From IMG/VR virus record IMGVR_UViG_3300020055_000012, positions 15,405 through 79,404 of that record: a DNA stretch of 64,000 nucleotides. One strand, written 5' to 3'. Both the position numbers and the translations under genes were made by a program. Origin of the DNA: a virus. Shown one piece after another: positions 42,195 to 43,120 of this stretch. The notes under the pieces were generated by a model that saw only the letters and a list, made by a program, of their open reading frames with translations, made no database searches and was not told the DNA's origin. Each line of letters starts with the position of its first letter. The first letter of the stretch is position 1.

Positions 42195-42539
42195 ATGAAT
42201 TCTGCTTTTAGGATAAATGCAAGACATAAAAGGAATGTACTAATAGAAAGAAGAGATAACATAAATCTTCAAATTTCTTCTGTTAGAGTAAAAGCTAAAA
42301 CAAGAAAGTTAAAAACTAACTGGACTCCTGAACTTGCTCAAGATTTAGAACGCTTTAATGTAACACATAAAGAGCCTGAAAATGTATATAAAAAGATATT
42401 ATTAACTGAAAAGTATGTACCAAAAAAATTTAATACACTTGATGTTGAAGCTCAATTGGTAGATGAACTATCATTAAATTTGGCTCAAGAAATTGATAGA
42501 CAAATCTTAAACAATTTAATGAACTTAGGAAATGAATAA
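42195..42539 (+). CDS. Mini-protein made of T4 gp23-like major capsid protein fragments
   Basis: VKAKTRKLKTNWTPELAQDL and LDVEAQLVDELSLNLAQEIDRQIL match gp23-family motifs; only 114 aa. Confidence 0.7.
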   Translation: MNSAFRINARHKRNVLIERRDNINLQISSVRVKAKTRKLKTNWTPELAQDLERFNVTHKEPENVYKKILLTEKYVPKKFNTLDVEAQLVDELSLNLAQEIDRQILNNLMNLGNE

Positions 42540-42891
42540 TTCATCAGTAAATAAAGCATTAAATGATTGGTATAATTTAACTTATCCAAAAGATAAAACA
42601 ATATACAAAAGAGAACTTCTTATTGAGAAGAATCATTCTTATAAATATTTAGGCGGCGCAATTGCGCTTCCTTTAGCAAGGCAAGTTGCAGCTACTACCA
42701 TAGGATTTGATTTAGTTTCTGTTTCTCCAATGGAAAGACCATCTGGTCAGCTTTTTTATGTTGATTATAATCTTGAAAATAAAAATTTATATAAAAAAGT
42801 ATTGCTAATTGAAAAGTATATAAGAAAATCAAAGAAAAGAACAAGAAGAAGTAGAAGAAGAGGTCAAAATGGAAAAAAGATATATGGATAG
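42532..42891 (+). CDS. Mini-protein containing a gp23-like capsid N-terminal fragment
   Basis: ALPLARQVAATTIGFDLVSVSPMERPSGQLFYVDY. Confidence 0.7.
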   Translation: MNNSSVNKALNDWYNLTYPKDKTIYKRELLIEKNHSYKYLGGAIALPLARQVAATTIGFDLVSVSPMERPSGQLFYVDYNLENKNLYKKVLLIEKYIRKSKKRTRRSRRRGQNGKKIYG

Positions 42892-43120
42892 ATATTTTAG
42901 AACTTTATTGGTTGAACTATATAAGCCGCAAACAATTTGGAGTCCTGGGGTTTATATTAGAGAAAGTGATATTAGTGTTATAAGTTATGATTTAATTTCA
43001 AGCCCTTCAAATTCTGGCTCAACAATAGGTATAAGCTCTAGAGCGATAGGAGGAGTATTTAATGAGCCTATAAAGATAGAAAGTGCAGAACAGTTTAGAA
43101 ATTTTTTTGATGATGTGTAA
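42869..43120 (+). CDS. Mini-protein containing a tail sheath N-terminal fragment
   Basis: SPGVYIRESDIS...G.FNEPIKIESAEQFRNFF. Confidence 0.65.
   Translation: MEKRYMDRYFRTLLVELYKPQTIWSPGVYIRESDISVISYDLISSPSNSGSTIGISSRAIGGVFNEPIKIESAEQFRNFFDDV

What the first reader, a model, noticed from the sequence alone, without database searches (positions are those of the whole stretch)
42195..43120. Operon of mini-genes built from capsid and tail-sheath fragments: possible immune decoys
Seen: three overlapping intact ORFs of 83-119 aa carrying conserved gp23-family segments (RKLK..WTPELAQDL; EIDRQIL; PL.RQV......DLVSV.PM..PSG.LFY.DY) and the sheath N-terminus (SPGVYIRE.D), interleaved with a YKKxLLxEK tag rather than being simple truncations. 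Established: several defences sense capsid proteins (CapRel, Lit). Inference: early-expressed decoys that titrate such sensors, or dominant-negative inhibitors of competing phages' assembly.
Basis: partly seen in the sequence, partly recalled or inferred. Interest (0 to 1): 0.75.

Follow-up and report, generated by a model that had tools for sequence, protein, structure and literature searches.

The report
Tagged capsid and sheath excerpt mini-genes
An uncultured salt-marsh giant phage keeps a small cassette of intact mini-genes, each joining short copies of the most conserved contact pieces of a capsid protein or tail sheath to the same 10-residue peptide tag; I found no published description of such genes, and their job is untested.

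Summary
Three overlapping + strand ORFs (A 42195-42539, B 42532-42891, C 42869-43120) carry gp23-family segments (Pfam PF07068, E 7.7e-13 and 1.7e-6). C carries the first ~57 residues of a huge-phage tail sheath (hhalign 94%, E 1.4e-7).

Each excerpt is bounded by a tag, [YF]-K-[KR]-x-[LI]-L-[ITV]-E-[KLT]. The tag also ends a neighbouring HTH regulator and a 56-aa ORF.

The cassette is not debris or misassembly:
- It recurs with the same neighbours at seven other loci and in independent metagenomes.
- All frames stay open.
- The tags are the most conserved residues and are kept through synonymous codon changes.
- Modules are gained, lost or fused next to tags.

Overall dN/dS is only moderately below 1 (A and B 0.2-0.7; C unclear). 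AlphaFold gives no stable fold apart from one helix.

Best reading (about 0.38): the tag is a portable signal read by the head-assembly machinery. Its L/I-x-E core fits T4 gp21-type prohead protease sites and resembles the T4 capsid-targeting sequence, so the proteins would be docked and cut into capsid-like and sheath-like peptides. Neither cutting nor packaging is shown.

This scan has noted the same kind of gene on other DNA (for example e1-5358784).

The parts
40870..41154 (+). Cro/C1-type HTH protein (94 aa) whose C-terminus carries a tag, YEKILLIEK (nt 41098-41124)
   Evidence: Pfam HTH_26 E 6.1e-5. Tag found. Orthologues in L004, L005, L007, L022 and L023 keep a C-terminal YEKK[LI]L[IT]E tag.
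42119..42148 (+). Sigma-70-like promoter match (ATGTCA-18-TATAAT) in the divergent intergenic region upstream of ORF A
   Evidence: The number of such matches in the region is no higher than in shuffles, so this is only a candidate.
42195..42539 (+). Mini-gene A (114 aa). Order of modules: degenerate N-terminal tag HKRNVLIER (42225-42254); gp23/gp24 strand-plus-helix excerpt (about 42255-42356); linker; tag YKKILLTEKY (42387-42416); gp23 spine-helix excerpt (about 42432-42524).
   Evidence: Pfam Gp23 E 7.7e-13. PDB profile match to gp24 150-178 and 180-211. A family of at least 12 small-protein clusters shares the same plan. AlphaFold is confident only for helix 84-112.
42532..42891 (+). Mini-gene B (119 aa). 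Order of modules: leader helix; tag IYKRELLIEK (42601-42630); Gol-region excerpt of gp23 (about 42655-42789); tag YKKVLLIEKY (42790-42819); strongly basic tail (42820-42888).
   Evidence: Pfam Gp23 E 1.7e-6. Eleven homologous mini-proteins of 89-123 aa keep IYKRELLIEK and the second LLIE invariant. Aligns to T4 gp23 92-127 and to huge-phage capsid proteins.
42869..43120 (+). Mini-gene C (83 aa). Order of modules: short leader; degenerate tag YFRTLLVELY (42893-42922); excerpt of the tail-sheath N-terminus (about 42932-43117).
   Evidence: Family alignments A2 and A5. Match to the sheath N-terminus of LR756502.1. Relatives carry an intact tag, VYKRKLLIELY.
43175..43519 (+). Small predicted membrane protein (114 aa) that follows C at every related locus; probably the last gene of the same transcription unit
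   Evidence: Conserved position in L004, L005, L007, L022 and L023, but fast-evolving (26-30% identity). One RNA-library contig spans 43057-43207, from the end of C into this gene (weak, could be DNA carry-over).
43545..43571 (.). Palindromic GC-rich hairpin flanked by A and T runs: a terminator-like site usable on both strands, closing the A-B-C-membrane unit
47021..47191 (+). 56-aa ORF ending in a tag, YYKKLLIEKK
Evidence: G001 has a similar 53-aa ORF ending in a tag, YRKKVIIEKY.

Best explanation
This is a conserved, fast-turning-over cassette of 'tagged excerpt' mini-proteins in an uncultured huge phage. The contig is 79 kb and CheckV rates it 24% complete.

Shown:
- Each protein is a mostly unfolded string of modules.
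- The modules copy the most conserved segments of a T4/huge-phage-type major capsid protein (MCP). B holds the Gol region. A holds the gp24 150-211 equivalent, whose last part folds as a long helix. C holds the first ~57 residues of the tail sheath.
- Each module is bounded by a 10-residue tag, [YF]-K-[KR]-x-[LI]-L-[ITV]-E-[KLT].
- The tag is kept by selection on the peptide, not on the DNA.
- The tag also sits on unrelated small proteins.
- Module gain, loss and fusion happen next to tags.

Inferred:
- The tag is a portable signal read by one phage-encoded partner.
- The best candidate partner is the head-assembly machinery. The tag's invariant [LI]-x-E core is what T4 gp21-type prohead proteases cut after. 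Its aromatic, basic and hydrophobic residues upstream resemble the T4 capsid-targeting sequence.
- On this reading the mini-proteins are docked to, and cut by, the prohead protease, as T4 gp67, gp68 and the internal proteins are. This would release capsid-like and sheath-like peptides and a basic peptide.
- The excerpts appear, from general knowledge of these folds, to be the segments through which capsid and sheath subunits grip their neighbours. The released peptides would then mimic these interfaces, to time or cap the phage's own assembly or to engage whatever else binds them.
For: - Homology of the excerpts.
- Family conservation, with the tags as the invariant residues.
- Synonymous codon variation inside tags (Leu CTT/TTA/TTG/CTA, Ile ATA/ATT), while the DNA repeats are only 77-81% alike.
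- Tag enrichment (13 observed against 2.55 +/- 1.6) and restriction to seven small proteins.
- Every tag ends in [LI]-x-E.
- gp21 cuts after L/I-X-E, cuts gp22, gp67 and gp68 into several pieces, and also trims a C-terminus (Alt). The 10-residue targeting sequence is portable: PMC9026906. The I/LxE specificity is confirmed in PMC12991175.
- Head proteins of a T4-like phage and of three huge phages start with the same kind of motif: gp21 MLLTE, gp67 QLIE, protease KPVLIIE, MCP WSPILE.
- Several A-family proteins and module X carry the tag at residues 3-12, like a T4 targeting sequence.
- Tag variants co-vary within a protein or lineage (the TRxV[LI]FEK lineage), as expected for one co-evolving reader.
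- AlphaFold finds no fold around the tags, so they would be accessible.
- B has a basic tail, as TG1 gp68 does.
Against: - No cleavage, packaging or expression data exist.
- No prohead protease or full MCP lies in any of the four contigs in hand (each 11-27% complete), so the supposed reader is unseen.
- L/I-x-E is a short, common motif. The tag is far more conserved than cutting alone would need.
- An ungapped tag profile did not rank the protease or other head-protein N-termini of reference phages.
- Full-length capsid proteins in the database lack the tag.
- The cassette lies among tRNA, YqeY, HTH and PcfJ genes, not in a head module.
- Tags at the extreme C-terminus of an HTH regulator fit a general docking motif at least as well.
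- dN/dS is only moderately below 1: 0.2-0.7 for A and B, and at or above 1 in some C and X pairs.
Confidence: 0.38

Rival explanations
1. The tag is a general docking motif (a short linear motif) for some other hub, such as a chaperone, regulator or membrane site, and not the head protease. The mini-proteins would then be competitive mimics or adaptors, like microProteins. They would bring capsid-like and sheath-like peptides to that hub, or compete with the tagged HTH regulator for it.
For: - A 10-residue motif is conserved far beyond a 3-residue cut site.
- It occurs at N-terminal, internal and C-terminal positions, and on an HTH regulator and a 56-aa ORF.
- Tag variants co-vary within a lineage.
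- The genes sit in a non-structural neighbourhood.
Against: - No candidate hub has been identified.
- Two or three tags flanking each excerpt in a 110-aa protein look more like processing joints than a single address label.
- The glutamate is invariant, as at a protease P1 site.
Confidence: 0.24
2. Immune decoys: the excerpts bind host sensors of conserved virion proteins and blunt them, or B engages EF-Tu as the T4 Gol peptide does.
For: - B copies the gp23 region equivalent to Gol. In T4, Gol binds EF-Tu and is the most conserved part of gp23 (PMC3014915).
- Many bacterial sensors recognise MCPs and tail proteins (PMC9712102, PMC13581612).
- Hosts also sense gp21 activity through I/LxE loops (PMC12991175), so multi-site substrates could in principle compete with those loops.
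Against: - There is no defence-related context and no evidence on expression timing.
- In the one known case the Gol peptide triggers Lit rather than blocking it.
- Avs-type sensors recognise whole folds, not 35-60-residue unfolded pieces (PMC13581612).
- This idea does not explain the tag.
Confidence: 0.13
3. Dominant-negative assembly poisons aimed at co-infecting or superinfecting relatives. The excerpts would cap the contact surfaces of a competitor's capsid or sheath subunits.
For: - The excerpts appear, from general knowledge of the folds, to be subunit-contact elements. They keep the residues that real gp23 proteins conserve.
- Assembly interference is a known strategy of mobile elements (Tai systems, PMC11364771).
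Against: - The phage's own assembly would be poisoned too, unless it is protected.
- The excerpts are no closer to any known MCP (45-53% identity) than cross-family conservation would give.
Confidence: 0.12
4. Non-functional recombination debris of capsid and sheath genes, or an assembly artefact.
For: - dN/dS is fairly high (0.4-0.7, and at or above 1 in some C and X pairs).
- The proteins have no stable fold.
Against: - Frames of 83-119 codons stay open in about 30% GC DNA at eight loci.
- Indels are in frame or compensated: a 12-nt insertion, and a -1/+1 pair 7 nt apart.
- Tags are invariant through synonymous changes.
- The small-protein families are diverse.
- Independent samples hold the stretch.
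Confidence: 0.03

Closest known systems
T4 capsid-targeting sequence on internal proteins IPI-III and Alt, and prohead core proteins gp67, gp68 and gp22, all processed by the gp21 prohead protease (PMC9026906)
   Same: - Small phage proteins carry a short portable peptide that ends in L/I-x-E.
- Several cut sites occur per small protein.
- The tagged gene set is variable and fast-evolving.
- B has a basic tail, as gp68 does.
- T4 also has C-terminal processing (Alt).
   Different: - There is no sequence homology to these T4 proteins.
- The tag is longer, occurs in several copies, and can sit anywhere in the protein.
- The cargo is excerpts of the phage's own kind of capsid and sheath proteins rather than enzymes or inhibitors.
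- The genes lie outside any head module.
- Cutting and packaging have not been shown.
T4-type major capsid and vertex proteins gp23/gp24 (Pfam PF07068, HK97 fold; PDB 6uzc, 8gmo, 1yue)
   Same: A and B match the family model above its cut-off and keep its most conserved residues (R-x-L-K-x-x-W-x-P-E; E-I-D-R-x-I; the Gol region).
   Different: - Only about 35-70 of 376 model positions are present.
- The pieces lie in separate genes, in permuted order, and are interrupted by the tag.
- They cannot form a capsid shell.
Gol peptide of T4 gp23 (Gol-Lit-EF-Tu exclusion; PMC3014915)
   Same: B's core aligns to gp23 92-127, the region that includes Gol. Gol binds EF-Tu and is the most conserved stretch of gp23.
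   Different: Gol acts as part of the nascent capsid protein. Here the segment is a free-standing tagged mini-protein. The host, any Lit-like protease and EF-Tu binding are all unknown.
Tail sheath proteins of huge phages (for example the 1283-aa sheath of LR756502.1; phrog_34521, PF04984)
   Same: The body of C is homologous to sheath residues 7-63 (hhalign 94%).
   Different: C lacks every sheath domain beyond the N-terminal segment, and has a tag and leader in front.
Assembly-interference proteins of mobile elements (Tai systems, PMC11364771) and eukaryotic microProteins (the latter from general knowledge)
   Same: The concept is shared: a small protein acts through a partner's interaction surface to block or modulate complex formation.
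   Different: There is no homology. Those proteins are not built from excerpts of the target and carry no shared tag.

Membership tests
T4-type major capsid protein gp23/gp24 (PF07068) | Significant match to the family profile | tested here: met
   A scores E 7.7e-13 (49 bits) and B E 1.7e-6 (28.1 bits), against a cut-off of 24.4 bits. PDB profile hits to gp24 and gp23.
T4-type major capsid protein gp23/gp24 (PF07068) | Full HK97-fold body (about 376 model positions covering the A and P domains) | tested here: not met
   Only model positions 131-200 (A) and 7-49 (B) are covered. AlphaFold finds no folded domain, only helix 84-112 of A.
Tail sheath (phrog_23, phrog_34521, PF04984, PF17482) | Homology to the sheath N-terminal segment | tested here: met
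   C family against the LR756502.1 sheath, residues 7-63: hhalign 94%, E 1.4e-7. Genome search E 1.4e-5 and 2.8e-4. The target is verified as a sheath.
Tail sheath (phrog_23, phrog_34521, PF04984, PF17482) | Sheath core domains (subtilisin-like and C-terminal domains) | tested here: not met
   No Pfam hit for any C-family member. The protein is only 83 aa.
T4 capsid-targeting-sequence or gp21-processed small head proteins (IPI-III, Alt, gp67, gp68) | Processing motif L/I-x-E at the end of the signal | tested here: met
   Every one of the clear tags in the window and in six related loci ends in [LI]-x-E. The rule is taken from PMC9026906 and PMC12991175.
T4 capsid-targeting-sequence or gp21-processed small head proteins (IPI-III, Alt, gp67, gp68) | Signal is an N-terminal propeptide of 10-19 residues | tested here: inconclusive
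   The tag is N-terminal in several A-family members and in module X. It is internal in A, B and C, and C-terminal in the HTH protein and the 56-aa ORF.
T4 capsid-targeting-sequence or gp21-processed small head proteins (IPI-III, Alt, gp67, gp68) | A gp21-type (S77) prohead protease in the same genome | tested here: inconclusive
   PF03420 was not found in G000 or G001, but those contigs are 22-24% complete and the control search found the family in no genome. Huge phages whose MCPs match B's Gol-region excerpt do have a gp21-like protease next to the MCP.
T4 capsid-targeting-sequence or gp21-processed small head proteins (IPI-III, Alt, gp67, gp68) | Sequence homology to the T4 proteins | tested here: not met
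   PHROG and Pfam scans of A, B and C return only the major head protein and sheath families.
T4 capsid-targeting-sequence or gp21-processed small head proteins (IPI-III, Alt, gp67, gp68) | Shown to be packaged in proheads and cleaved | not testable with these tools
   This needs proteomics or biochemistry.
Gol-Lit-EF-Tu exclusion trigger | Segment equivalent to the Gol region of gp23 | tested here: met
   B-family profile positions 42-77 align to T4 gp23 92-127. The position of Gol within gp23 is recalled from the literature; PMC3014915 gives its length (29 residues) and its conservation.
Gol-Lit-EF-Tu exclusion trigger | Binds EF-Tu and activates a Lit-type protease | not testable with these tools
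Multi-core RiPP precursors (cyanobactin-like) | Maturation enzymes encoded next to the precursor | tested here: not met
   Neighbours are YqeY, an HTH protein, acidic proteins without any family, a small membrane protein and PcfJ. No protease, cyclase or other RiPP enzyme is present.

The most novel reading that the evidence does not exclude
Huge phages use a position-free peptide tag to load a changing set of unfolded 'excerpt' peptides into the prohead. These peptides are copies of the contact segments of their own capsid and sheath. The head protease cuts them free. The released peptides then act either as built-in regulators or caps of capsid and sheath polymerisation, or, after ejection with the DNA, as mimics that engage host factors or sensors of conserved virion proteins. 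This would be a previously undescribed class of virion-protein mimicry with its own addressing system.
Probability: 0.2. Interest if true: 0.85.

Novelty: new variant of a known kind. Interest (0 to 1): 0.62.

Why it matters
If the tag really is a docking and cutting signal, it gives a simple sequence handle for listing what huge uncultured phages load into, or process at, their heads. It would also extend the T4 capsid-targeting idea to a multi-copy form that works at any position in the protein.

The cargo is the odd part. Phages keep, under selection, free-standing copies of exactly those capsid and sheath segments that are most conserved, that appear to hold subunits together, and that include the Gol-equivalent segment sensed in T4.

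Learning whether these peptides regulate the phage's own assembly, sabotage rivals or deal with host sensors would open a testable question about molecular mimicry within phages. The families are widespread in viral metagenomes: A has at least 12 clusters at 50% identity. I found no published description.

Tried and rejected
Synteny was recovered through the search for related loci and a DNA pattern scan instead.
- AlphaFold of B was uninformative: pLDDT 49.5, with the tags drawn as strands at low confidence. AlphaFold of A was confident only for helix 84-112. No fold search was run because the models are poor.
- Complex prediction of A with B returned no verdict (score 0.02). This is not evidence for or against binding.
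- Early sheath tests failed:
  - tblastn of C against phages found nothing.
  - The PDB profile search gave only chance hits.
  - Pfam found nothing.
  - The search among longer proteins found nothing.
  - hhalign against a T4-like gp18 N-terminus gave E 0.11, probability 0.55%.
  The link was settled only with huge-phage sheaths.
- An ungapped profile of 54 tags scanned over head-gene loci of six reference phages did not rank the protease N-termini. The likeness of the tag to KPVLIIE or MSKQLLID is by eye only and is off by one residue.
- The idea that B's leader copies the capsid protein's extreme N-terminus got no hhalign support.
- No full capsid protein was found in G000-G003, and no S77 protease in G000 or G001. 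The excerpts therefore could not be compared with the phage's own genes.
- RNA-library contigs are tiny and sparse and do not cover A, B or most of C. No statement on expression is possible.
- DNA-level repeats as the cause of the tag were rejected: copies are 77-81% alike and differ at synonymous sites.
- The literature search for 'LLIEK' returned only OCR noise. Searches for capsid-fragment decoys or mimics found no description of such genes.
- Pattern hits in three giant-virus bins (L019, L021, L025) were treated as chance or unrelated.
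Full report
**What is there**

The window is bases 15405-79404 of a 79,404-bp IMG/VR virus contig that CheckV rates 24% complete. GC content is about 30%. The genome is probably several hundred kb; that size is inferred from the completeness figure.

Between a minus-strand gene ending at 42120 and a two-way terminator-like hairpin at 43545-43571 lie four co-oriented ORFs:
- A, 42195-42539. It is 114 aa from the ATG that homologues use.
- B, 42532-42891, 119 aa.
- C, 42869-43120, 83 aa.
- A small membrane protein, 43175-43519.

A/B overlap by 8 nt and B/C by 23 nt.

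**The capsid excerpts are real**

- A hits Pfam Gp23 (PF07068) at E 7.7e-13, and B at E 1.7e-6. Both are above the curated cut-off. PHROG 138 agrees.
- Real capsid proteins match A as two stretches. tblastn pairs 92 residues of A with about 62-67 residues of a capsid protein.
- The A-family profile aligns to T4 gp24 residues 150-178 and 180-211. Two pieces that are contiguous in the capsid protein are thus split in A by a 29-residue insert carrying the tag.
- B's core aligns to T4 gp23 92-127. It is 47-52% identical to the capsid proteins of huge phages LR756504.1 and LR756500.1 (hhalign 96-97%).
- This is the Gol-equivalent region. The literature describes Gol as the most conserved part of gp23 and as an EF-Tu binder (PMC3014915).

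**The sheath excerpt needed more work**

The window's C has no Pfam, PHROG or tblastn hit. Relatives reach only E 0.02-0.26 against PHROG 23, though always collinear with the profile's first 80 positions. A T4-like gp18 N-terminus gives nothing significant.

A profile of seven C-family members, searched in complete huge-phage genomes, hit the very start of a long ORF in LR756502.1 (E 1.4e-5) and in LR756504.1 (E 2.8e-4). hhalign gives 94% probability, E 1.4e-7, for C columns 30-91 against residues 7-63 of the LR756502.1 ORF. That ORF is 1283 aa from its first start codon and is a tail sheath (phrog_34521 E 4.4e-92; PF04984 E 7e-8).

So C is a leader, a degenerate tag and the first ~57 residues of a huge-phage-type sheath.

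**The tag**

The tags are:
- HKRNVLIER and YKKILLTEKY in A.
- IYKRELLIEK and YKKVLLIEKY in B.
- YFRTLLVELY in C.
- YEKILLIEK at the C-terminus of the upstream Cro/C1-type HTH protein, 40870-41154 (Pfam HTH_26).
- YYKKLLIEKK at the end of a 56-aa ORF, 47021-47191.

The core motif occurs 13 times in the contig's proteins against 2.55 +/- 1.6 after shuffling. In the related 72-kb contig G001 it occurs 11 times against 2.7.

The tags are not a DNA repeat. Copies are 77-81% alike at the DNA level. The conserved Leu, Ile, Tyr, Lys, Glu and Arg residues use different synonymous codons in different tags. Each orthologous tag keeps its own codons across genomes. The peptide is therefore what selection keeps.

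**Relatives**

- B has eleven homologues of 89-123 aa at 45-96% identity. In these, IYKRELLIEK and the second LLIE are invariant, while the Gol excerpt is less conserved.
- In a search of 1.84 billion representative proteins, the top 11 hits to A are small proteins (79-164 aa). With two further hits, 13 were aligned and most share A's plan: tag, strand-plus-helix excerpt, tag, spine-helix excerpt.
- One lineage has replaced all its tags in concert by TRxV[LI]FEK.
- Full-length capsid proteins match only at E around 1e-5, with 45-53% identity over the first excerpt. None of them carries the tag. The excerpts are therefore old and are not recent copies of any known capsid gene.

Seven further loci show the same neighbourhood: YqeY, the tagged HTH protein, a minus-strand acidic gene, the cassette, then the membrane ORF. 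The cassette content differs:
- A-B-C in the window and in L022.
- A-X-B-C in L004-L007 (L006 ends inside the cassette, before C). X is an 89-aa module of unknown origin that starts with a tag.
- A followed by B's leader and tag fused directly to C's body, in L009.
- A, a remnant of B's second tag and tail, then C, in L023.

The breakpoints sit next to tags. The tags therefore behave as module joints.

**Selection and authenticity**

Pairwise NG86 dN/dS values:
- A: 0.36-0.69.
- B: 0.17-0.70.
- C: 0.5-0.6 against the window, but at or above 1 in two of the three pairs of close relatives, where substitutions are few.
- X: 0.5-2.2.
- Neighbouring YqeY: 0.11-0.17. HTH protein: 0.16-0.42.

Constraint on the mini-genes is thus weak on average and concentrated in the tags and the gp23 and sheath signature residues.

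Several facts argue against debris:
- All frames stay open in roughly 30% GC DNA.
- An independent aquatic-metagenome variant differs by an in-frame 12-nt insertion and by a -1/+1 indel pair 7 nt apart in C.
- The stretch is present in many salt-marsh runs and, as near relatives, in aquatic and sponge runs. This rules out misassembly.

Expression is not settled. Three metatranscriptome libraries hold only read-sized contigs. One spans the end of C into the membrane ORF. None covers A or B.

**Structure**

AlphaFold gives no confident fold for B (pLDDT 49.5). For A only the spine-helix excerpt, residues 84-112, is confident (pLDDT 79-96). The proteins look like flexible strings of motifs rather than miniature capsid proteins.

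**How it most likely works**

Shown: these are modular, selected mini-proteins made of excerpts of virion proteins, each bounded by one peptide tag that also marks other small proteins.

Inferred: the tag is read by a single partner. The best candidate is the head-assembly machinery, for these reasons:
- Every tag ends in [LI]-x-E.
- T4 gp21 cuts after L/I-X-E. It chops gp22, gp67 and gp68 into several pieces and trims both ends of Alt. A portable 10-residue capsid-targeting sequence ending in such a site loads internal proteins into the prohead (PMC9026906; the specificity is confirmed in PMC12991175).
- Head proteins of a T4-like phage start with this kind of motif: gp21 MLLTE, gp67 QLIE, gp22 QLIKE, gp24 QLLRE.
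- So do those of three huge phages whose capsid proteins match B's Gol-region excerpt: the protease-scaffold fusion starts KPVLIIE or KKSLLIIE, and the MCP has WSPILE.
- Several A-family proteins and X carry the tag at residues 3-12, like a T4 targeting sequence.

Cutting at the tags would free a Gol-like peptide, a strand-plus-helix peptide, a spine helix, a sheath N-terminal peptide and a basic tail.

From general knowledge of HK97-type capsids and contractile sheaths, these appear to be the elements through which subunits grip their neighbours. I therefore favour interface mimicry as the role of the released pieces. The target could be the phage's own assembly, rival phages or host binders. 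That remains open.

**Limits of this reading**

- No protease or full capsid gene lies in any contig in hand.
- L/I-x-E is a short motif.
- The tag profile does not pick out reference protease N-termini.
- The cassette sits among tRNA, YqeY, HTH and PcfJ genes, not head genes.
- A C-terminal tag on a regulator suits a general docking motif equally well.

I put the head-machinery reading at about 0.38. A different hub gets 0.24, immune decoys 0.13, anti-competitor poisons 0.12 and debris 0.03.

**Comparison with what is known, and novelty**

The nearest described system is the T4 capsid-targeting sequence with gp21 processing of small head proteins. This cassette shares the logic of the motif but not the sequence. 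It differs in having several tag copies at any position in the protein, in its cargo, and in where it lies in the genome.

It is not a capsid or sheath protein in any functional sense. I found no paper describing tagged excerpt mini-genes.

Earlier notes from this scan report the same kind of gene on other DNA: e1-5358784 has an LLIEKY tag in a marine giant phage, and e1-5633699 describes a genome-wide R-x-[VI]-[IL]-x-E-K tag. These are unchecked AI notes and I did not use them as evidence.

- The sheath link is demonstrated.
- The excerpts are mapped onto gp23 and gp24.
- The tag is shown to be kept at the peptide level, through synonymous codon changes.
- Module turnover next to tags is documented across eight loci.
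- The excerpts match the proteins of Al-Shayeb-type huge phages better than those of T4; the attribution of the LR756xxx records to that study is from memory.

Noticed in passing
window 43591-44313 (-) and 44768-45859 (-): Two acidic, coiled-coil-looking proteins without any family hit share an N-terminal leader, M(K/E)IT..EL..(I/M)IKEEA. The leader is also conserved in contig G001. It ends in I-K-E and resembles the start of T4-like gp22 (MHIKEQLIKEAQ). These could be scaffold-like or internal head proteins.
   Followed up: partly
L004 9735-10004, L005 9726-10004, L007 4696-4965, L006 8187-8456: Relatives carry an extra 89-92-aa module, X, between A and B. It starts with a tag (MSKRNLIIEY) and has no Pfam or PHROG match. 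Its origin is unknown.
   Followed up: partly
L038 1462-1674 (LR756502.1, about 466.2 kb): A complete 642-kb huge phage has a 70-aa ORF that holds only a gp23 spine-helix excerpt (Gp23 model positions 164-192, E 0.004) and no tag of this type. Excerpt mini-genes therefore also exist without this tag.
   Followed up: no
L030 285-2183, L031 66-2204, L032 63-2162: In three huge phages the gene just upstream of the capsid gene encodes a 632-712-aa protein. Its N-terminal part looks like the gp21 protease by eye, and its long C-terminal part is presumably scaffold, that is, a fused protease-scaffold. No profile search was run on it.
   Followed up: no
window 42757 and 42933/42940 (variant in run X13; also protein P0002): An aquatic-metagenome strain has a 12-nt in-frame duplication (VDYN repeated) in B's Gol excerpt, and a compensated -1/+1 indel pair in C.
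   Followed up: partly
window 1073-7105 (-): Three tandem paralogous genes of 659-679 aa match PHROG 4775, 'pre-neck appendage protein' (E 1e-20 to 1e-27).
   Followed up: no
window 17627-21088 (+): A single 1153-aa ORF combines SbcD-like (residues 10-382) and SbcC-like (125-1137) matches, an apparent SbcCD fusion.
   Followed up: no
L019 1891-2211 (-) (IMGVR GVMAG-M-3300009159-67): A 106-aa ORF in a contig binned as a giant virus holds a perfect tag, IYKKELLTEKY. This may be chance, or a phage contig placed in the wrong bin.
   Followed up: no
window 40462-40860 (+) and upstream: A YqeY-like protein (Pfam E 1e-18) precedes the tagged HTH gene at every related locus. ORF translations upstream in the window, L005 and L006 look like read-through of tRNA genes, but no tRNA scan was run. 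B's Gol-like, potentially EF-Tu-binding, excerpt therefore sits in a translation-themed neighbourhood.
   Followed up: no
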